From a virus (taxonomy: Duplodnaviria > Caudoviricetes), in the IMG/VR virus record IMGVR_UViG_3300028601_000023, positions 1-64,000 of that record: DNA of 64,000 nt, one strand, 5' to 3'. Made by a program: the position numbers and the translations under genes. The notes below the pieces were generated by a model. It was not told the origin of the DNA and searched no databases. It worked only from the letters and a program-made list of their open reading frames with translations. Of this stretch, positions 6,700 through 50,481 are shown one piece after another (the stretch's first letter is position 1; each line of letters opens with the position of its first letter).

Positions 6700-6707
6700 T
6701 ATAAATA
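6700..6707 (+). promoter_or_regulatory. T4-type late promoter directly before tnpB (likely leaderless mRNA)
   Basis: TATAAATA-GATAT-ATG, no SD. Confidence 0.65.
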
Positions 6708-6712
6708 GATAT

Positions 6713-7858
6713 ATGATTAGATATATTTCATATAAGTTTAGAATAAAACCTACCAAAACGCAAGAATCCTTGTTTATAGAACATTGTGGTGCGTCCCGTT
6801 TTATTTATAATAAACTCCTTGAACAACAAATTTCCTTATATGAAAATGAGAAGAAATTTATGTTCGGTATGGCATTATCTAATGCGGTAAAACCAATAAA
6901 AGAAAATAATGATTGGTTGAAGAAAGTAAACAGTCAATCACTTCAACAATCTGCACTAAATTTGGGTAAAGCTTTTAGTAATAAATTCAAACATAAAACT
7001 GGTGGTTTTCCTAAATTCAAATCAAGAAAGAGTTCTAAACAAGCTTTCTCTGTACCACAACATTTTAATATCCGTGGCAACAAAGTTAAATTGCCGAAGA
7101 TTGGTTGGATAAAAATAGTCAATCATAGAAAACTATCAGGCAAAGCTAAATCTTTGGTAATTTCCCTCGATGTGGATCAATGGTTCGTTTCTATCTTATG
7201 TGAACAAGATGTACCGGTACCTACCATAGATTACAAATCAGTAGTCGGTATTGATCTTGGTATAAAAACCTTTGCTATCACTAGTGATGGTGAAGTCTTC
7301 GAACTACCAAAACTAGAACAAGAAACAACGAAACTAAAGAAACTTCAAAGATCATTTACTAGAAAACAAAAAGGATCAAATAACAGAAATAAAGCTAGAA
7401 TAAAGGTTGCAAAACAATATAGAAAAATCTCAAGAATAAAAGATGATCTAATAAACAACTATGTTAGCTCGATAGCCAAGAGTTACGATGTTGTTTCAAT
7501 GGAAAATCTAAACATTCAAGGAATGAAGAAAAATCATTGTTTGGCACCATCTATTCAACAGCTTCCATGGTTCTCATTCAAAATGAAACTAAAACATAAA
7601 GTCAAAGAACTAGTTGAAGTTGGTAGGTTCTATCCTTCAAGTAAAACTTGTTCTGCGTGCGGTTTCGTCAAGAAAGATTTGTCTCTTAGTGAGAGAACCT
7701 ACCATTGCGAAAACTGTGGTCTGTCGATTGATAGAGACTTGAACGCAGCCATAAATATCAAAGACGCGGCAACGGCGTTGTTTGCTTGTGGAGGAACACG
7801 GGTTCCGGTGAAGCAAGAATCAGGTCTCATTGGAGACCTCAAGCTAGAAAGTCTTTAG
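6713..7858 (+). CDS. tnpB: RNA-guided endonuclease TnpB, apparently catalytically intact
   Basis: HTH N-terminus, RuvC-I GIDLG, RuvC-II MENL, zinc finger CSAC/CENC, RuvC-III DRDLNAA. Confidence 0.97.
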   Translation: MIRYISYKFRIKPTKTQESLFIEHCGASRFIYNKLLEQQISLYENEKKFMFGMALSNAVKPIKENNDWLKKVNSQSLQQSALNLGKAFSNKFKHKTGGFPKFKSRKSSKQAFSVPQHFNIRGNKVKLPKIGWIKIVNHRKLSGKAKSLVISLDVDQWFVSILCEQDVPVPTIDYKSVVGIDLGIKTFAITSDGEVFELPKLEQETTKLKKLQRSFTRKQKGSNNRNKARIKVAKQYRKISRIKDDLINNYVSSIAKSYDVVSMENLNIQGMKKNHCLAPSIQQLPWFSFKMKLKHKVKELVEVGRFYPSSKTCSACGFVKKDLSLSERTYHCENCGLSIDRDLNAAINIKDAATALFACGGTRVPVKQESGLIGDLKLESL

Positions 7859-19420: not shown

Positions 19421-20701
19421 ATGGCCGAAATGCTAACTGAAGAATTCCGCAATAAGTGGAAGAACATTGTTGAAGAGGAATATGCTGGGCTTCCTCCTGT
19501 TAAAGATCCAACCATCAAGAATGCGATTTATTCCGCAATTCACAATACTGAAAAAGATCTACAGGAAGCAACTGTAACTGGTGACATCGCTCAGTACACA
19601 CCTGTATTGATTTCTTTGATTCGTAGAACCCTACCAACTCTTGTTGGTCCTGAACTTGTAGGTTTGCAGCCAATGTCTGTTCCTACTGGTCGTATTTTCG
19701 TACAGCACGTTTATGGTGGTGGATCTGAGATTTGGAAAGAAGGTGCTGTAGGTACTTCTACCGCTGCTGGTGCTGCTCCAAATGCTTCTCTATCCGGTCC
19801 TTATACTACTGCTAACGGCGAACAGCTTGGCGTTAAAGGCACTGGCGTGGCTACTGATGAAGCTGGAACTGGTACCATAACTTTACAGACTCCTGGTGTG
19901 CCATGGCCTGAAATGCAGTTTAGTATTTCTGCTGTTGATGTATCCGTGAAGACACGTGCTTTGAAGGGTAAGTTGACAACTGAAATCATCTCCGATCTTA
20001 AGGCTGTGCACGGTCTTGATGCTGAGCAGGAAATTGCTAACATCCTACAGACTGAAATCACTGCTGAAATCGACCGCGAGATTGTAACTCGTATCTACAC
20101 AGAAGCTAAGACTGGTGCTGGTAACTGTTCTGTAGCTGGTACTTTCGACTTCTCCGTTGATGCTGATGGACGTTGGTCAATGGAAAAGGTTATGGGTCTA
20201 TTGATTCAGATTGAACGTGAAGCAACTTGGATTGCTCAGGAAACTCGTCGTGGTCGTGGTAACTTTATTCTTACTTCCCCTGAATTGGCTGCTTATCTTT
20301 CTATGGCCAATTTGATCAGTGTTGATATTAAGAATACTGGTTTTGATCAGCCTATCAACCCAGTTGGTGTGTCTTACTACGGTATGCTAACCAATCGCTT
20401 CAAGGTATATGTTGATCCTTATCTAACTTCTACTGTTGATTCTGGTAAGATCAAGCATCAGATGGTTGTAGGTTACAAGGGCGCTAACGTTTATGACGCT
20501 GGTTTGTTCTATTGTCCTTATATTCCTCTACAGTTCTTCAAGGCTACTGGTGAAGAAGATTTTGGGCTACGTCTCGGTGTGAAAAGCAGATATGGTTTAG
20601 TAAGCAATCCCTACTACATGGCAACTGGTACTACCGCCGCTACCGCCGCTACCAACTCTTACTTCCGGAAATTCTCAGTAATTACCGACAAATACGCGTA
20701 A
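19421..20701 (+). CDS. gp23: Major capsid protein
   Basis: LISLIRR, GLQPM..PTG, DLKAVHGLDAE, EI.AEIDRE, DAGLFYCPY.PL, SRYG...NP. Confidence 0.98.
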   Translation: MAEMLTEEFRNKWKNIVEEEYAGLPPVKDPTIKNAIYSAIHNTEKDLQEATVTGDIAQYTPVLISLIRRTLPTLVGPELVGLQPMSVPTGRIFVQHVYGGGSEIWKEGAVGTSTAAGAAPNASLSGPYTTANGEQLGVKGTGVATDEAGTGTITLQTPGVPWPEMQFSISAVDVSVKTRALKGKLTTEIISDLKAVHGLDAEQEIANILQTEITAEIDREIVTRIYTEAKTGAGNCSVAGTFDFSVDADGRWSMEKVMGLLIQIEREATWIAQETRRGRGNFILTSPELAAYLSMANLISVDIKNTGFDQPINPVGVSYYGMLTNRFKVYVDPYLTSTVDSGKIKHQMVVGYKGANVYDAGLFYCPYIPLQFFKATGEEDFGLRLGVKSRYGLVSNPYYMATGTTAATAATNSYFRKFSVITDKYA

Positions 20702-20730
20702 GTTTAATTCAAGTTTAACTCTCTTTAATG

Positions 20731-20757
20731 AAGGGCCTTCGGGCCCTTTTTTATTTT
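20731..20757 (+). terminator. Intrinsic terminator with C(UUCG)G tetraloop
   Basis: AAGGGCC-TTCG-GGCCCTT then T run. Confidence 0.9.
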
Positions 20758-20800
20758 CTAATTCTATCAGTAAGCAATCCATTTTACACAAATCTCAATG

Positions 20801-20808
20801 TATAAATA
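20801..20808 (+). promoter_or_regulatory. Late promoter directly before the GIY-YIG endonuclease (likely leaderless)
   Basis: TATAAATA-GATAC-ATG. Confidence 0.7.
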
Positions 20809-20813
20809 GATAC

Positions 20814-21935
20814 ATGAAAAACAAATCCAAATTCTCGAGGCGTCTATTAGACTTTTGGGCACATAAGCTTGAAACGTGTAAATTCCACTATTTCTACATT
20901 ATTACAAACACTAAAAACAACAAAATTTATTGTGGTATTCATTCGACCAACGCTCTAGATGACAACTATATCGGTTCTGGATCTGATTTATTAAAGGAAT
21001 ATCAGAAATACGGCACCGAACACTTTGTCAAGAAGATTATCTGTAGATTCGAAACTAGGCGTCAAGCAAGTGAATTTGAAAAGTTTGTAGTCAACAAAAC
21101 ATTTATTCTATCTCCATATACATATAATAAACGCATTGGCGGAGATAATGGTGGAATCTTGAATCATACAGAAGAAACGCTTAAAAAGATTTCAGATGCA
21201 TCTAAATTAAATATCACTGATTCATTCGCTCGTTATAGTAAAAATAAATGTAGAGTCTTTAATCCTGAATCTGGCCGAAGAAAAATTGTTGACAAAGAAG
21301 AGCTAGAGTTGTATCTTAAACAAGGATTCGTTAGAGGAACCGGAATTAAAAACAAAACGTCTCTAAATAAAAAGATAGTTACAAATACTTCTACAAATGA
21401 ATCTATATTCGTTAATGCAAATAAAGTAGATGAATACACCAACGGAGGATATGTTGTGGGAAATAACGGAAAAGGATCAGACAAGCGCTCTATAGCACAA
21501 ACTGGGTTGAAAGTACTATATAACAAAGAGCTAGACAAACACACAAAGGTAAAACCGGAATTAGTTGATGAATATCTTGAAAACGGGTGGGTTCTTGGAA
21601 TGTCTGAAGAACTAACAAAAGCAAAAGGAACCATTGCACTTGATACAGTTTGGATCACCAATATTTCTACTAATGAATGTATCAAAATTAAGTTAGTAGA
21701 TCTGCAAAGCTATCTTGACAACGGATGGATCAAAAAGAGAACAATGCAATTTTCAGAAGAAGGTTTGAAGAAGTGTGGAGATTCTTCCAGAGGATTGGTC
21801 TTTGTTCATTTACCTTCAACACAAGAATGCAAAAGAGTTCAACCAGAAGAAGTTGATGCGTTGCTTTCAGAAGGGTGGATTAAAGGGCGTCCATTCAAAA
21901 AGAGAAATAGAAAAAAGAAATCGGATTTACTATAA
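20814..21935 (+). CDS. Free-standing GIY-YIG (Seg-like) homing endonuclease
   Basis: YFYIITN..N.KIYCG.H...YIGSG, YNKRIGG; five C-terminal repeats ending GW/GF/GY. Confidence 0.88.
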   Translation: MKNKSKFSRRLLDFWAHKLETCKFHYFYIITNTKNNKIYCGIHSTNALDDNYIGSGSDLLKEYQKYGTEHFVKKIICRFETRRQASEFEKFVVNKTFILSPYTYNKRIGGDNGGILNHTEETLKKISDASKLNITDSFARYSKNKCRVFNPESGRRKIVDKEELELYLKQGFVRGTGIKNKTSLNKKIVTNTSTNESIFVNANKVDEYTNGGYVVGNNGKGSDKRSIAQTGLKVLYNKELDKHTKVKPELVDEYLENGWVLGMSEELTKAKGTIALDTVWITNISTNECIKIKLVDLQSYLDNGWIKKRTMQFSEEGLKKCGDSSRGLVFVHLPSTQECKRVQPEEVDALLSEGWIKGRPFKKRNRKKKSDLL

Positions 21936-21943
21936 TGACTTTG

Positions 21944-22031
21944 TATAAATAAAATCGTATTCCACAAGATACTGATGATGATTCGTTCGTCATCCGGAAA
22001 ACCACCAGATTGCCTCCTCTGGTGGTTTTTT
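21944..22031 (+). ncRNA. Candidate late small RNA (promoter, three hairpins, terminator)
   Basis: TATAAATA at 21944, no ORF, 12-bp terminator stem with loop TTGCCTCC; gp3 has its own GATAAATA at 22044. Confidence 0.55.
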
Positions 22032-22067
22032 GTTTTCTAAGTTGATAAATATGGTTGAGGAGTATAT

Positions 22068-22589
22068 ATGTCAATATTACAACAAATAGATCTATCAAAA
22101 GCCGGTTCTAATAATTTCATTATGGTAACTGATCGTTTGCCCAATATGATGTATTTTGTTCAGAACGCTTCTATGCCATCTCTGACAGCTAATCAAACAA
22201 TTCTTCCATTTCCAACAAAAGCAACTTTCAGTGTGCCATCTCCAAATTTGGAATACGAAGAACTGACTCTTGTTATGCTAATGGATGAAAAGTTTAAATC
22301 ATATTTCTCAATCGTAGAATGGATGCAATATAATACCAAGGTTAAGAATTTTGCTGAAGCTTTTTCTGATCTGAACTTGTTGCTTTTAGACAATGCAAAG
22401 AATCCAATTCTATCTGTCAAATTCATAGATGCTATGCCAGCTACAATTTCAAACTTTGAAATGGGATCTGATGATTCACATTCATTTACGTTCTATGCTA
22501 CATTCAAATATCATTACTTTACTTGTACATATTTCGATGGAACTGGATCTTTCTGGACTCCGAACATTCCGGAACCAGTGGTGCCATAG
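22068..22589 (+). CDS. gp3: Tail tube terminator / completion protein (gp3-like)
   Basis: YFVQ.A.MP, LEYE.L....MDE....Y..I.EWM, F.DA.P motifs; precedes uvsY/uvsW. Confidence 0.8.
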   Translation: MSILQQIDLSKAGSNNFIMVTDRLPNMMYFVQNASMPSLTANQTILPFPTKATFSVPSPNLEYEELTLVMLMDEKFKSYFSIVEWMQYNTKVKNFAEAFSDLNLLLLDNAKNPILSVKFIDAMPATISNFEMGSDDSHSFTFYATFKYHYFTCTYFDGTGSFWTPNIPEPVVP

Positions 22590-22641: not shown

Positions 22642-23058
22642 ATGAAAACTGTAACTGAACCGAAAACCATATCCAAATATGAATCGGAAGCTATTTCTGA
22701 TCTCAATTTCGATATTTCAAAATTTCAAGACTATACTACTTCTATTGGATCTAAAAAGGTCAAATGGGGAAGGTATCTATACGATGAAGAGAAGTTGCTC
22801 AATACAGCTGATCATAAACTTCGTGAAGCATATCTTGAACGTTATAACCATTATAGATTCAACCATGAAACAATTATAGAACCAAAGAACTTGGATATCT
22901 ATATCAAAGCAGATGTTCTTTATACAGAAAAAGAAACAGCTGTACAATTACAAAAATTAAAAGTAAATTTCATTAAAGAAGTTTTATCTACTCTGGAAGG
23001 ACAGTCTTTTATTGTCAATTCAGTACTAAAACATTTCTTGTGGGAACATGGAGAATAA
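22642..23058 (+). CDS. uvsY: Recombination mediator UvsY
   Basis: Size, helical content, Y..YR...E....DIYIKAD motif, synteny; start reassigned to the ATG after GGAGG. Confidence 0.75.
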   Translation: MKTVTEPKTISKYESEAISDLNFDISKFQDYTTSIGSKKVKWGRYLYDEEKLLNTADHKLREAYLERYNHYRFNHETIIEPKNLDIYIKADVLYTEKETAVQLQKLKVNFIKEVLSTLEGQSFIVNSVLKHFLWEHGE

Positions 23059-24833: not shown

Positions 24834-25319
24834 ATGTCAAAACGTCCGCAATACTGTAACAATAAGGAATTTTATGAAAGGCTCACATCATGGTTAGATG
24901 AAACCAAAGATCAAGAATCTCCAAAAATCCCAGATGATATTGCTCTGACTATCATGCGTATCTGTGAGAACCTTGGACGATCTGGACGGTTTAAAAACTA
25001 TACATGGCTTGACGATATGATTGCTGATGCCATTTATTGTTGTATCAAAGGTCTTAGAAATTTCAACCCAGAAAAAAGTTCTAATCCTTTTTCTTTCTAT
25101 ACTGCTTTTGCATGGAATGCATTCATTAAACGTATCAATACTGAAAAGTCACGATTAGCTGCTCTTCAGGATTACAAAGAAAATCTAACTGATCTGTACT
25201 ATACGGATCGAAATGATGACTTTTCATATATTGATACTAATGCTCATAATGCAAATATGGAATATTTAAAAGAGAAAAAGAAAAAAATCAAAAAAGATCT
25301 GATGGAAGAATTCTTATAA
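24834..25319 (+). CDS. gp55: Late-transcription sigma factor
   Basis: Y.NNKEF, F.NYTW.DDMI.DA, NFNPEKSSNPFSF.T...NAFI.RI..EK. Confidence 0.93.
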   Translation: MSKRPQYCNNKEFYERLTSWLDETKDQESPKIPDDIALTIMRICENLGRSGRFKNYTWLDDMIADAIYCCIKGLRNFNPEKSSNPFSFYTAFAWNAFIKRINTEKSRLAALQDYKENLTDLYYTDRNDDFSYIDTNAHNANMEYLKEKKKKIKKDLMEEFL

Positions 25320-28126: not shown

Positions 28127-28164
28127 AGACTTTCAAGCGCCGCAACGAAACAGTCAATAATATC

Positions 28165-28186
28165 GGGACCTTACGGTCCCTTTTTT
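28165..28186 (+). terminator. Intrinsic terminator after gp46
   Basis: GGGACC-TTAC-GGTCCC-TTTTTT. Confidence 0.88.
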
Positions 28187-28364
28187 AATTTTCTGCCAAT
28201 TTTGTTGGTAAATATACAGCAATTTTCGTCAATTTCGGGAATAGTCAATTAATTCAACAGGTTAGATGAAATATAGACACACTCTAAGTGGTTGATTTAA
28301 TTCAACAAAAAAAGATACCGTTATTTTCCACAACATTTTTCGTAAATCACAAAAGTGAACCGTT

Positions 28365-28578
28365 TAAAGTAGACAGCTGAAGGATTTATACTAACTTATA
28401 CTGAAATTTCAATATAACTCGGTATAACTTTCCACCAAGGTTTCTACTGTAAGTTTCAACTAACAAGAGCGAAGCTAAATCTTTCCACTGAGGGAACCGA
28501 AGTGGATGTCCCGAAGGGACAAACTCTGATGAGATTTTATTAGATCACCAGAGTGAATACCTAAAGTAGACAGCTGAA
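28365..28578 (+). repeat. 17-bp exact direct repeat TAAAGTAGACAGCTGAA (28365-28381, 28562-28578)
   Basis: Read directly; both copies preceded by AGTGAA. Confidence 0.9.
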
Positions 28579-28793
28579 AGGTTTAGCTAAGTTTAGCAGT
28601 CTTAGAATTATTTAGACGAGATAGAAAGTATATCTATCAGTCCATCTATCAATTAGAATATCCTTAAGGCGATATTTAGATTTATTCTAATTGATCATTC
28701 TCCGGTTCCCTCCGAATGATACCGTCACTAGTTCCTAGTGACAATGGTTTTAATGGTTCCTTTAAAATTCTATTCTAAATACCTCTATTATTC

Positions 28794-29180
28794 ATGTTTT
28801 ATAGCTCCAAACTATATTTGTTTGGGACTAAGTATTTAAAATTATTGAAAATGACATTTTGATGGTTTATCTAGAGATATATCATGAAATTCTATCATCA
28901 GTCCAAAAAACTTTGGAGAGTGTATGATACTCCGTTAAATGACATTCTATCCATCTAAGTAATCAACTAAATTGACTAATTTCTTCTATTGCCTCTAATT
29001 GTTCCCTAGCGGGAAATGGCCTCGGTTCCCTTCGGCCAAAGTTTTAATGGTTTCTATAAATATTTCTATGGAATTCTATTGATCATTCCTATAAAATTTT
29101 ATATTCTGATTCTATCAATTCCATATTATATCTATGTTTTATAGCTCCAAACTATATTTGTTTGGGACTAAGTATTTAAA
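28794..29180 (+). repeat. 47-bp exact direct repeat (28794-28840, 29134-29180) within a larger imperfect repeat
   Basis: ATGTTTTATAGCTCCAAACTATATTTGTTTGGGACTAAGTATTTAAA twice, with internal CCAAAC/GTTTGG hairpin. Confidence 0.95.
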
Positions 29181-29213
29181 TTTATTCAAATTCACATAAA
29201 ATCAAATATTTAG

Positions 29214-29242
29214 TTGACAGATCAGCCAAACGAGAATATATT
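29214..29242 (+). promoter_or_regulatory. sigma70-type early promoter
   Basis: TTGACA-17-TATATT. Confidence 0.8.
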
Positions 29243-29273
29243 CTTATCTCAATCAACAAACCACGGAGTTTAA

Positions 29274-38726: not shown

Positions 38727-38774
38727 CATATCTAATTTTACTTGATATTGTCTGATATTGATTTGGAGGCAAAT

Positions 38775-48651: not shown

Positions 48652-50481
48652 ATGGAGGCAACCTTGAGTTCAGAATTTAAAGTCCTATCCGATCGAGCGC
48701 ATATCTTACTGAGACCGTCAATGTATATAGGCTCAGTCTCTCCAGAACTAGTCAATAGATATATAGACGGCAAACATGTTCAAGTTTCAATCGTTCAAGG
48801 TCTATCAAAAATCATTAATGAATTGATAGATAATTCTATTGATGAATTCCTCAGATCTGGCAAGAAATTTGCAAACAAAATTTCTATCACAGCAAATTCA
48901 AAATCATTCAGAATAGAAGACAACGGCAGAGGCATTCCAGTAGAGAAATATGAAAATACTTGGAAACCAGAACTTTGTTGGACAGCATGCAGAGCTGGAA
49001 CGTCTTTCTCTGATGATCGTGTTGGTGCTGGTGCAAACGGCCTTGGATCTGTTGCTGCAAATATCTTCTCTAAGAAATTCCTTGGAGAGACAGCTGACGG
49101 TCAGAGAGTTTGTACTGTTCTCTGTCAAGACAATGCCGAAAAGGTCAATACATCTGTCAGTATAAAGAAAACAAACAAGACTGGAACGTCTGTTTATATT
49201 GAACCAGACTTTCAACGATTCTCTTGTACAGAATTCTCTGAAGATCAAATCACGTTGATCCGAGAAAGACTCCTTGGGATTGCTTCTATCTATCCAGAAA
49301 TCTCCTTTACTTTCAATGGTGAATCAATCCGTTGTAGAAAACCAAAAGATTATTTGACTATCTTTGGTGAAACATTTATTGCTCATGAAGATCAGAATTT
49401 CTTTATCGGAATCTTTCCGACATCGACTGATGAATATTGTCAGAAATCAATGCTGGACGGTCTAGAGTTTTTCAACGGTGGATCTCATGAAGAATATGTT
49501 TCAAGGTCTCTATCAAATGAACTAAAAGTTCTGATTAAGAAAAAACATAAGCTTGAGATGAGTCCTGCTGAAATCAAGCGTGGACTATTCTTGGTCATCA
49601 ATGGAAAACATTTTCAGAACATGAAATTTGATTCTCAGACTAAAGAGCGTCTGACCAACACGGAATCAGAAGTCAAAAAGTATTTCGGTGAGATTCCATT
49701 CGAGAAACTTGCTAAACAGATTCTTGCCACTGATGATATTATTTTGCCGATCATTGAAACAAAATTAGCAAAGCAAGCTGCAATCGATGCTCGTGCTGTT
49801 ACAATGGCACAAAAGAAATTGTCTGCAAATAAAGTAGACAAACATTTGAAAGCTCTGTCAAGAAATCCAGATGAACGTATTTTGTTTCTTTGTGAAGGTG
49901 ATTCTGCTGCTGGTGCTTTGAAAGTTGTCCGTGATATTCAGAAACATGGAGGATTCCCTTTACGAGGAGTTCCAATGAATTGTTATGGATCAACTCATAA
50001 GCAGATACTAGAGAACAAAGAATTCAAAAACATCATGGCTATTCTAGGATTGCAATTCAATAAATCTAAAATAGAAACACTTGACAATCTAGAATATGGC
50101 ACTGTTGGAATCATGACTGATGCCGATGTAGACGGCTCTCACATCCTAACTCTCTTAGTAAATTTCTTTTACAATTGGCCGGAGCTCTTTGCTAACGGTA
50201 TTATCAAATATGTACGTACACCGCGTTGGATATGTACAAAAAATAAAGATGTTCAGTATTTTTATACAGATGAAGATTTTGAACAGAAGAGAAACTCTCT
50301 GAAAGGATATGAAATCCGCTATATCAAAGGCCTTGGATCTCTTAGAACACATGAATATACATTTGCTATTAATAATCAATCTATGTGGCAGACTATTACC
50401 ATAGACGATGTCTCAGCAATCAGAACAATGTTCGCTGGAGATGCTGTTTCAGAAAGAAAAGAAATTCTAAAAAACGGTTGA
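48652..50481 (+). CDS. gp39: Type II topoisomerase ATPase/TOPRIM subunit (contiguous gp39+60)
   Basis: RPSMYIGS, ELIDNSIDE, DNGRGIP, CEGDSA, PLRG, DADVDG.HI, YIKGLG; possible TTG start at 48664. Confidence 0.96.
   Translation: MEATLSSEFKVLSDRAHILLRPSMYIGSVSPELVNRYIDGKHVQVSIVQGLSKIINELIDNSIDEFLRSGKKFANKISITANSKSFRIEDNGRGIPVEKYENTWKPELCWTACRAGTSFSDDRVGAGANGLGSVAANIFSKKFLGETADGQRVCTVLCQDNAEKVNTSVSIKKTNKTGTSVYIEPDFQRFSCTEFSEDQITLIRERLLGIASIYPEISFTFNGESIRCRKPKDYLTIFGETFIAHEDQNFFIGIFPTSTDEYCQKSMLDGLEFFNGGSHEEYVSRSLSNELKVLIKKKHKLEMSPAEIKRGLFLVINGKHFQNMKFDSQTKERLTNTESEVKKYFGEIPFEKLAKQILATDDIILPIIETKLAKQAAIDARAVTMAQKKLSANKVDKHLKALSRNPDERILFLCEGDSAAGALKVVRDIQKHGGFPLRGVPMNCYGSTHKQILENKEFKNIMAILGLQFNKSKIETLDNLEYGTVGIMTDADVDGSHILTLLVNFFYNWPELFANGIIKYVRTPRWICTKNKDVQYFYTDEDFEQKRNSLKGYEIRYIKGLGSLRTHEYTFAINNQSMWQTITIDDVSAIRTMFAGDAVSERKEILKNG

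What the first reader, a model, noticed from the sequence alone, without database searches (positions are those of the whole stretch)
21944..22031. Candidate late small RNA exposing an anti-Shine-Dalgarno loop
Seen: a perfect late promoter and a strong terminator enclose only about 75 nt with no ORF, while the next gene has its own late box (22044). The RNA can form three hairpins (GTAT/ATAC; GATGATGA/TCGTCATC; a 12-bp terminator stem). The terminator loop UUGCCUCC is the exact complement of GGAGGCAA, found in the ribosome-binding regions of the phosphoesterase (38765-38772) and topoisomerase (48654-48661) genes; uvsY has GGAGGC. Established: C-rich loops of bacterial sRNAs pair with SD sequences. 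Inference: a trans-acting late sRNA that dampens early or host translation while leaderless late mRNAs are immune.
Basis: partly seen in the sequence, partly recalled or inferred. Interest (0 to 1): 0.72.

Follow-up and report, generated by a model that had tools for sequence, protein, structure and literature searches.

The report
Late promoter-to-terminator small RNA unit
Between a homing-endonuclease gene and a tail gene of an uncultured T4-like phage lies a strong late promoter followed 80 bases later by a strong stop signal, so a roughly 76-base RNA without a protein is probably made late in infection. That it silences ribosome-binding sites is plausible but unshown.

Summary
TATAAATA (21944-21951), a marginal hairpin, a stable hairpin and a strong intrinsic terminator (21995-22032, loop UUGCCUCC) lie between the seg stop (21935) and gp3's own promoter (GATAAATA, 22044). 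No conserved ORF is inside.

New support:
- The promoter carries the upstream box TTACTAT-N10 that this phage otherwise uses for the sheath, scaffold and capsid genes.
- The only relative found keeps the unit: no change in 21936-22003, two compensatory pair changes in the terminator stem, and 7 of 8 loop bases kept.

- Structural late genes are not leaderless; they use AGGAG-type Shine-Dalgarno sites. Only seg and TnpB are leaderless.
- Loop complementarity does not separate structural from other genes (p 0.31).
- GGAGGCAA sites are near chance level.
- The terminator sits where any T4-like phage puts the terminator ahead of gp3's promoter.

A different pairing turned up: the RNA's open 5' end matches 12 nt of the leader of an unknown 613-aa gene, but shuffled RNAs reach this 5.6% of the time.

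Verdict: probably a real small late RNA, of the kind that shares its terminator with the upstream gene. Its function is unproven. This scan has noted similar late anti-SD units in other phage genomes. Only two sequences exist and there are no expression data.

The parts
20814..21935 (+). GIY-YIG seg-like homing endonuclease gene. Its 3' UTR is the unit. It is probably expressed as a leaderless late mRNA from TATAAATA at 20801-20808.
   Evidence: PHROG homing endonuclease, E 4.7e-30. TATAAATA plus 5 nt plus ATG.
21927..21933 (+). Upstream promoter box TTACTAT, 10 nt before TATAAATA, overlapping the last seg codons and the stop.
   Evidence: The same box and spacing precede the capsid gene (19339). 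Near-identical forms precede the sheath (13020) and scaffold (17552) genes. Four exact-spacing cases against 0.012 expected.
21944..21951 (+). T4-type late promoter TATAAATA (P2); predicted start at G21957.
   Evidence: A gp55 late sigma gene lies at 24834-25319. The promoter is invariant in the relative.
21957..21972 (+). 5' segment of the RNA: weak hairpin 1 (GUAUU-CCACAA-GAUAC), effectively open. Nt 3-14 of the RNA (21959-21970) are the candidate 5' seed.
   Evidence: -0.7 kcal/mol, not better than shuffles. 12-nt perfect complement to G000 122207-122218.
21974..21994 (+). Hairpin 2: 8-bp stem with loop UUCGU.
   Evidence: -9.5 kcal/mol, z -3.6. Invariant in the relative.
21995..22036 (+). 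Intrinsic terminator T2: 8-bp G+C-rich core extended to 15 bp, with a U-run. It also ends the seg transcript.
   Evidence: Two compensatory base-pair changes in the relative, A-U to G-C and C-G to A-U.
22010..22017 (+). 8-nt terminator loop UUGCCUCC (anti-Shine-Dalgarno-like).
   Evidence: The only 8-nt loop among the genome's plus-strand terminators, which otherwise have 3-6 nt. The relative has CUGCCUCC.
22044..22051 (+). GATAAATA (P3): gp3's own late promoter. Predicted start at G22057, the first base of the SD GAGGAG.
   Evidence: NATAAATA is the late motif of marine T4-like phages (PMC2984593). GATAAATA also precedes gp3 in Sf-CH8 and in the Nitratidesulfovibrio phage.
22068..22589 (+). 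gp3-like tail completion / tube terminator gene, downstream of the unit.
   Evidence: PHROG tail tube family. tblastn hits annotated as tail completion and sheath stabilizer.

Best explanation
This is a small late transcription unit nested in the 3' untranslated region of the seg homing-endonuclease gene.

A late promoter of the same extended class that drives the sheath, scaffold and capsid genes (TTACTAT-N10-TATAAATA) starts transcription at about G21957. A strong intrinsic terminator stops it at about 22031. The product is an RNA of about 76 nt with an open 5' end, one stable hairpin, and a terminator hairpin whose unusually large loop reads UUGCCUCC.

The same terminator ends the seg mRNA and shields gp3 and uvsY from late read-through. 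The layout is therefore that of an sRNA made from an internal promoter that shares its terminator with the upstream gene.

The RNA most likely acts by base pairing near ribosome-binding sites. It would do so through the CCUCC loop (GGAGG-type sites, found here almost only on replication and nucleotide-metabolism genes), through its open 5' end, or both.

Shown: the sequence features, the predicted fold, the promoter class, and conservation in one relative. Inferred: transcription, termination, and any trans action.
For: - The promoter is not a stray TATAAATA. It shares a 29-nt context with the gp23 promoter and the TTACTAW box with the sheath, scaffold and capsid promoters (4 observed against 0.012 expected).
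- gp55 is present.
- gp3 has its own GATAAATA, as in distant relatives, so P2 is not needed for gp3.
- The terminator is the strongest in the region.
- Its 8-nt loop is atypical. The other terminators of this genome have 3-6 nt loops, and T4 terminators typically have 4-nt loops (PMC2988022).
- In the relative, 21936-22003 has 0 changes in 68 nt, against 9 substitutions plus a 17-nt indel in the neighbouring MCP-seg spacer (p 0.014). The preceding 85 nt of seg differ at 29 sites.
- Two compensatory pairs keep the stem, and 7 of 8 loop bases are kept.
- Neither short ORF behaves as coding.
- There are experimental precedents for start-then-stop units giving phage sRNAs: StxS (PMC7547250) and the 201phi2-1 sRNAs, one of them upstream of a tail gene (PMC11512511).
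- A terminator-loop C-rich motif binds a Shine-Dalgarno region in LhrC (PMC4132741).
Against: - Only two sequences exist, 92% identical overall, so the covariation test has no power (122 of 500 shuffles reach the observed value). A recombination boundary could mimic conservation.
- There are no expression data.
- There is no Rfam match, and no second copy or homologue with the covariance model.
- There is only one CCUCC, whereas known SD-occluding sRNAs usually carry several C-rich motifs.
- Target statistics are weak.
- The A-tract before the stem can pair with the U-tail, which does not look like an Hfq-type 3' end (my knowledge).
- The terminator is needed at this position anyway.
Confidence: 0.4

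Rival explanations
1. The hairpin is only a terminator and insulator. It ends the seg and late read-through transcripts ahead of gp3's promoter. P2 is a promoter displaced or copied during insertion of the seg cassette. The short RNA is a functionless by-product, and the CCUCC loop is chance.
For: Distant T4-like phages have the order terminator, NATAAATA, next gene in this gap. T4 segD, also next to gene 23, is flanked by terminators, and promoters for downstream genes are often embedded at endonuclease gene ends (PMC2988022). P2 resembles the gp23 promoter over 29 nt. Target statistics are at chance level.
Against: A by-product does not explain the invariant, stable hairpin 2, the complete conservation of 21936-22003 next to a fast-evolving seg gene and spacer, or the oversized 8-nt loop. 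gp3 has its own promoter, so a displaced promoter has no gene to serve.
Confidence: 0.3
2. The unit is a leader with an attenuator for gp3. P2 is a second, strong promoter for gp3 (and uvsY). The terminator lets only a fraction of transcripts through, as in the promoter-proximal terminators of lambdoid late operons.
For: The unit lies directly upstream of a tail gene needed in few copies. Another late promoter of this genome (125609) is followed at +1 by a terminator-like hairpin and then the SD of a PAAR gene, with no second promoter. The portal promoter (15227) is also followed by a hairpin at +1.
Against: gp3 has its own conserved GATAAATA 16 nt before its start. The terminator has a perfect U-run and a -20 kcal/mol stem, so read-through should be low. 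No alternative anti-terminator fold appears in the 129-nt fold. Complementarity between CCUCCUC and gp3's GAGGAG is only 6 nt.
Confidence: 0.15
3. The unit is not transcribed: the promoter is silent in vivo, or the features are leftovers of a deleted small late gene (promoter and terminator kept, coding part lost).
For: The gp23-gp3 gap gains and loses small genes in related phages. TATAAATA also occurs inside genes in this window.
Against: The extended promoter box and the conservation pattern argue against decay. Hairpin 2 is better than shuffles.
Confidence: 0.1
4. A short protein is encoded: the 21-aa frame 21975-22040 on the + strand, or the 67-aa frame 21895-22098 on the - strand.
For: Both frames are open in the window, and the 67-aa frame is also open in the relative.
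Against: There is no SD before the 21-aa frame. All codon changes in the relative are non-synonymous in both frames (P to T, W to C, W to R; and T to D, N to S, V to S), as read. The - strand GTG behind the GGAGG is lost in the relative.
Confidence: 0.03

Closest known systems
LhrC sRNAs of Listeria (Rfam RF00616), and the UCCC-loop sRNAs RNAIII, RsaE and SprD of S. aureus
   Same: These are short, multi-hairpin RNAs in which a C-rich motif exposed in a loop, including the terminator loop in LhrC, pairs with the G-rich Shine-Dalgarno region of target mRNAs (PMC4132741).
   Different: LhrC carries the motif three times; this RNA has one CCUCC. There is no sequence or covariance-model similarity. 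This RNA is phage-encoded and driven by a late promoter. No target is validated.
StxS / lambda 6S-type RNA: a late promoter followed at once by a terminator
   Same: A phage late promoter is terminated a short distance downstream. The resulting short RNA, 74 nt after processing, acts in trans and binds a ribosome-binding site (PMC7547250).
   Different: StxS is a by-product of Q antitermination that feeds the downstream late operon in a temperate phage. Here the downstream gene has its own promoter, no antiterminator is known, and the phage is a lytic T4-like type.
Short start-to-stop transcription units (sRNAs) mapped in giant phages 201phi2-1 and phiKZ
   Same: Experimentally mapped units in which a termination site follows a start site closely. 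One is conserved upstream of a tail protein gene (PMC11512511).
   Different: Different phage group and promoters, and no sequence relation. Those RNAs were detected, whereas this one is only predicted.
sRNAs made from an internal promoter at the end of the upstream gene and sharing its terminator (DapZ and MicL type; from my own knowledge)
   Same: The promoter overlaps the end of the upstream coding region. The sRNA is co-linear with that gene's 3' UTR and uses the same terminator.
   Different: Those are Hfq-dependent enterobacterial sRNAs with a free U-tail. Here the U-tail can pair with an upstream A-tract, and the host is unknown.
PeSL regulatory cassettes of T4-type phages
   Same: A small promoter-plus-stem-loop-terminator module in a variable region next to a non-essential mobile gene (PMC2839356).
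   Different: PeSLs use sigma70-like early promoters and occur as many similar copies that recombine. This unit has a late promoter and is single-copy.

Membership tests
Intrinsic (Rho-independent) terminator | G+C-rich stem directly followed by a U-run | tested here: met
   8-bp core with 5 G-C pairs, extended to 15 bp, then UUUUUUGUUUU; -20.4 kcal/mol, z -6.0.
Intrinsic (Rho-independent) terminator | Short loop (T4 terminators typically have 4 nt) | tested here: not met
   The loop is 8 nt. The other plus-strand terminators of this genome have 3-6 nt. The T4 norm is from PMC2988022.
T4-type late promoter | TATAAATA about 6 nt before the start, in a phage that encodes gp55 | tested here: met
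   Perfect box at 21944-21951. gp55 family, E 3.9e-37. The extended box is shared with the structural gene promoters. Activity itself was not testable.
SD-occluding C-rich-loop sRNAs (LhrC, RsaE, RNAIII, CcsR type) | C-rich anti-SD motif in an accessible loop | tested here: met
   CCUCC lies in the unpaired 8-nt loop in the MFE and centroid folds of both sequences.
SD-occluding C-rich-loop sRNAs (LhrC, RsaE, RNAIII, CcsR type) | Motif repeated in two or more exposed sites | tested here: not met
   There is a single CCUCC. The other loops are CCACAA and UUCGU.
SD-occluding C-rich-loop sRNAs (LhrC, RsaE, RNAIII, CcsR type) | Complementarity to target ribosome-binding sites beyond chance | tested here: inconclusive
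   GGAGGCAA occurs 3 times against 0.85 expected, own strand included. Structural versus other genes, p 0.31. C after GGAGG has conditional p 0.067.
SD-occluding C-rich-loop sRNAs (LhrC, RsaE, RNAIII, CcsR type) | Discrete stable transcript | not testable with these tools
   No RNA data are available for this uncultured phage.
Any Rfam family | Covariance-model match at the gathering score | tested here: not met
   The best overlapping hit is Phe_leader at 18.4 bits against a gathering score of 55, E 9.2.
sRNA from an internal promoter sharing the upstream gene's terminator | Promoter at or inside the 3' end of the upstream gene, with a shared terminator | tested here: met
   The box TTACTAT overlaps the seg stop, TATAAATA lies 9 nt after it, and T2 is the first terminator after seg.
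PeSL cassette | Sigma70-like early promoter plus stem-loop, in many similar copies | tested here: not met
   The promoter is a late one. The unit is unique in the genome by BLAST and by covariance model.
T4-type RBS-sequestering hairpin with a late promoter in the loop (I-TevI type) | A long stem pairing an upstream arm with the SD of the downstream gene | tested here: not met
   Only CUCCUC/GAGGAG (6 nt) could pair. The 129-nt fold keeps the terminator hairpin and does not pair it with gp3's SD.

The most novel reading that the evidence does not exclude
An abundant late phage sRNA, made from a capsid-class promoter, acts in two ways. Its terminator loop copies the ribosome's anti-Shine-Dalgarno sequence and turns down the GGAGG-led replication and nucleotide-metabolism genes late in infection, which would be a base-pairing counterpart of what T4 achieves with the RegB nuclease. 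Its open 5' end clamps the first 12 nt of the mRNA of an unknown 613-aa gene, and the thymidylate-synthase-like gene next to that one carries the best loop match (AGGAGGCAA).
Probability: 0.15. Interest if true: 0.7.

Novelty: new member of a known kind. Interest (0 to 1): 0.4.

Why it matters
Almost nothing is known about regulatory RNAs of T4-like phages of environmental bacteria. If this RNA is made, it would be a compact, testable case of a lytic phage using a base-pairing RNA to re-allocate translation late in infection. It would also add to a pattern that this scan has noted in several unrelated phage genomes: a late promoter, an exposed CCUCC, then a terminator. If it is only a terminator with a stray promoter, it shows how homing-endonuclease cassettes are insulated in the variable gap between the capsid gene and gp3.

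Tried and rejected
- Rfam search at permissive thresholds found nothing. ARAGORN found no tRNA or tmRNA.
- Relatives were sought by gp3, capsid and seg proteins and by three DNA patterns. The collections were viral contigs (8 of 8 scans used), metagenome contigs (2 of 2), genome contigs (2 of 2) and GenBank phages. Only one contig, IMGVR_UViG_3300002702_000024, carries the unit.
- The 53 hits to the hairpin-2 pattern were coding-sequence chance matches.
- A contig with the same terminator stem but loop AUUAAUUU (L004) matches only the terminator part of the covariance model, in another context, so I treated it as a generic terminator.
The roughly ten other Logan/ENA contigs that encode near-identical gp3 therefore could not be fetched.
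- Rejected: a minus-strand gene using the loop's GGAGG as its SD, because the GTG is lost in the relative.
- Rejected: a leader peptide, because there is no SD and the changes are non-synonymous.
- Rejected: cis sequestration of gp3's SD, because only 6 nt can pair.
- Rejected: co-evolution of GGAGGC sites with the loop, because the excess is mostly explained by avoidance of U and G after GGAGG.
- A genome-wide count of CCUCC 'in loops' with loose hairpin rules does not discriminate, since about 30% of any C-rich 5-mer passes.

Full report
**Context.** The window is the first 64 kb of a 141-kb IMG/VR record, 36% G+C, estimated about 80% complete. The gene order is major capsid protein (19421-20701), GIY-YIG seg-like endonuclease (20814-21935), gp3-like tail completion protein (22068-22589), UvsY, a zinc-ribbon ORF, UvsW and gp55. 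Apart from the inserted seg gene, this is the order of marine T4-like phages. The nearest gp3 outside a tight cluster of near-identical sequences is only 42% identical, so the lineage is isolated.

**Anatomy.**
- The capsid gene is followed by its own terminator (20730-20749). TATAAATA at 20801-20808 then abuts the seg ATG with a 5-nt gap, which predicts a leaderless mRNA.
- The seg stop codon is at 21933-21935.
- The box TTACTAT (21927-21933) lies 10 nt before TATAAATA (21944-21951). By the T4 rule the start is G21957.
- Next come a weak hairpin (21957-21972), a stable 8-bp hairpin (21974-21994) and a terminator. The terminator has an 8-bp G+C-rich core, extends to 15 bp (21995-22032), has the loop UUGCCUCC (22010-22017), and is followed by a U-run.
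- Eighteen bases later GATAAATA (22044-22051) predicts a start at the first G of the SD GAGGAG (22057-22062), ahead of the gp3 ATG (22068).

**Is the structure real?**
- The 81-nt stretch folds at -33 kcal/mol, z -6.3.
- Taken separately, the terminator gives -20.4 (z -6.0) and hairpin 2 gives -9.5 (z -3.6). Hairpin 1 gives only -0.7, no better than shuffles. The 5' 16 nt should therefore be treated as open.
- The relative folds the same way.
- Rfam gives nothing near a gathering score, and there is no tRNA.

**Is the promoter real?**
- TATAAATA alone occurs 11 times in the window against about 6 expected, so a bare match means little.
- This copy, however, shares 25 of 29 bases with the capsid gene promoter.
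- It belongs to a class TTACTAW-N9-11-[T/G]ATAAATA found before the sheath (13020), scaffold (17552) and capsid (19339) genes, before thyX (77863), and inside a non-coding repeat (121959).
- With exact spacing there are four cases against 0.012 expected.
- gp55 is encoded nearby.
- The promoter therefore resembles those of the most highly expressed late genes.

**Does gp3 need it?**
- In distant T4-like phages the gap after the capsid gene reads terminator, NATAAATA, next gene.
- GATAAATA precedes gp3 itself in Synechococcus phage Sf-CH8 and in a Nitratidesulfovibrio phage.
- NATAAATA is the published late motif of cyanomyoviruses (PMC2984593).
- So the box at 22044 is gp3's own promoter. The terminator occupies the canonical place of the upstream unit's terminator, and P2 has no gene to serve.
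- The gap is a variable hot spot. It holds one to three small genes or a halogenase in cyanophages.

**Comparative evidence.**
- Only one relative carries the unit: IMGVR_UViG_3300002702_000024, 92% identical over 7.1 kb.
- The seg genes are 64-89% identical. The 85 nt before 21891 differ at 29 sites, whereas 21891-22003 differ at one (p 2e-11).
- Positions 21936-22003 have no change in 68 nt. The capsid-seg spacer has 9 substitutions and a 17-nt indel in 112 nt (p 0.014).
- In the terminator, four of the five changes form two compensatory pairs (A-U to G-C, C-G to A-U). The fifth changes the first loop base, leaving GCCUCC intact.
- With two sequences the formal covariation test has no power, and a recombination boundary could produce the same pattern. 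I count this as moderate support for constraint on the promoter, hairpin 2 and the stem, and weak support for the loop.
- A covariance model of the two sequences finds no further copy in the genome or in five other T4-like records, apart from a generic terminator.

**Coding potential.**
- A 21-aa plus-strand frame and a 67-aa minus-strand frame cross the unit.
- In the relative every altered codon is a non-conservative replacement in both frames.
- The minus-strand GTG that follows the GGAGG is lost.
- Neither frame is credible.

**The anti-SD idea.**
- The loop is complementary to GGAGGCAA at the phosphoesterase and topoisomerase starts.
- Genome-wide, 22 genes have GGAGG before their start. 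Nearly all are replication or nucleotide-metabolism genes: DNA polymerase, UvsX, UvsY, topoisomerase, ThyX, dUTPase, two exonucleases and a thymidylate-synthase-like enzyme. Only a PAAR protein and a baseplate hub protein are structural.
- Structural genes use AGGAG, GGGAG, AGAGG or GAGGAG.
  1. The longest loop match does not differ between the structural block and the other genes of the window (p 0.31).
  2. The excess of C after GGAGG (11 of 22) mostly reflects avoidance of U and G at that position (p 5e-6); given A or C, the excess has p 0.067.
  3. One 7-nt match lies behind a strong-class promoter (thyX, 77907).
- The claim that late mRNAs are leaderless holds only for seg and TnpB.

**Another possible seed.**
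- Nt 3-14 of the RNA (21959-21970, the weak hairpin 1) are perfectly complementary to G000 122207-122218. These are bases +2 to +13 of the mRNA of an unknown 613-aa gene, ending one base before its SD.
- This is the best structure-aware cofolding partner among 180 start regions, at -10.1 kcal/mol.
- However, 5.6% of dinucleotide shuffles of the RNA reach a 12-nt match in some start region.
- The next gene in that operon (124125, thymidylate-synthase family) carries the longest plus-strand loop match, AGGAGGCAA. An 11-nt match (GAGGAGGCAAT) lies on the minus strand at 137524.
- The second-best partner is the zinc-ribbon ORF at 23048 (UCUUGUGGGAA). CTTGTGG lies in start regions 2 times out of 10 against 0.45 expected.
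- These are leads, not findings.

**Weighing.**
- The sequence predicts that a short RNA is made in quantity late in infection. The promoter class, gp3's separate promoter, the conserved hairpin 2 and the oversized loop all favour a selected RNA over a by-product.
- The position of the terminator, the single CCUCC, the chance-level target statistics and the two-sequence sample keep the function open.
- My estimates are 0.4 for a functional base-pairing small RNA, 0.3 for a terminator with a functionless promoter, 0.15 for an attenuated gp3 leader, 0.1 for no transcription, and 0.03 for a peptide.

**Known relatives in kind.**
- The architecture matches sRNAs made from an internal promoter that share the upstream gene's terminator.
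- The proposed mechanism matches the C-rich-loop sRNAs, including the terminator loop of LhrC.
- Phage precedents for start-then-stop RNAs are StxS and the 201phi2-1/phiKZ sRNAs, one of them upstream of a tail gene.
- It is not a PeSL cassette, and it is not an RBS-sequestering hairpin of the I-TevI type.
- Earlier notes of this scan describe similar late-promoter units with exposed CCUCC in other phage genomes, some of them T4-like. They are unverified and share no sequence with this one.

**Limits.**
- No accessibility-aware interaction program was available.

Noticed in passing
window 28150-29250; G000 84440-85200 and 121230-122200: Three non-coding regions of about 0.8-1 kb share long identical blocks. 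Two begin with the same terminator (GGGACCTTACGGTCCC), and each holds a TATAAATA. A hairpin ATCATTC-[UCCGGUUCCCUCC]-GAAUGAU shows CCCUCC in a 13-nt loop on the plus strand at 28694, 121733 and 121893. They are candidate origins or a non-coding RNA cluster.
   Followed up: partly
window 13020, 17552, 19339, 21927; G000 77863, 121959: An extended late promoter class, TTACTAW-N9-11-[T/G]ATAAATA, precedes the sheath, scaffold and capsid genes, thyX and one non-coding region. The upstream box lies at about -30, where T4 late promoters have no known element.
   Followed up: partly
window 6700-6715 and 20801-20816: Two mobile-element genes (TnpB and seg) have TATAAATA exactly 5 nt before the ATG. This predicts leaderless late mRNAs starting at the A of the start codon.
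   Followed up: partly
window 21444-21458: Inside seg, GGAGG followed 7 nt later by an in-frame GTG could give a 159-aa C-terminal (DNA-binding) fragment of the endonuclease.
   Followed up: no
G000 125609-125668: A late promoter is followed at +1 by a 9-bp terminator-like hairpin and a U-run. The SD of a PAAR-motif gene comes next, with no second promoter in between.
   Followed up: no
G000 122171-125054: Overlapping sigma70-like TTGACA and TATAAATA boxes lie before an unknown 613-aa protein with no Pfam or PHROG hit. It is followed by a thymidylate-synthase-family gene. This may be a DNA-modification operon.
   Followed up: partly
window and G000, 22 gene starts with GGAGG: The base after a GGAGG Shine-Dalgarno site is A or C in 21 of 22 genes, never G and once T (p about 5e-6). 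The strongest possible pairing with the 16S tail therefore seems to be avoided.
   Followed up: yes
window 19800-21900 versus L005: Between the two related phages the seg gene (64-89% identity) and part of the capsid gene (76% around 19800-20000) are far more diverged than the rest of the structural block (95-100%).
   Followed up: partly
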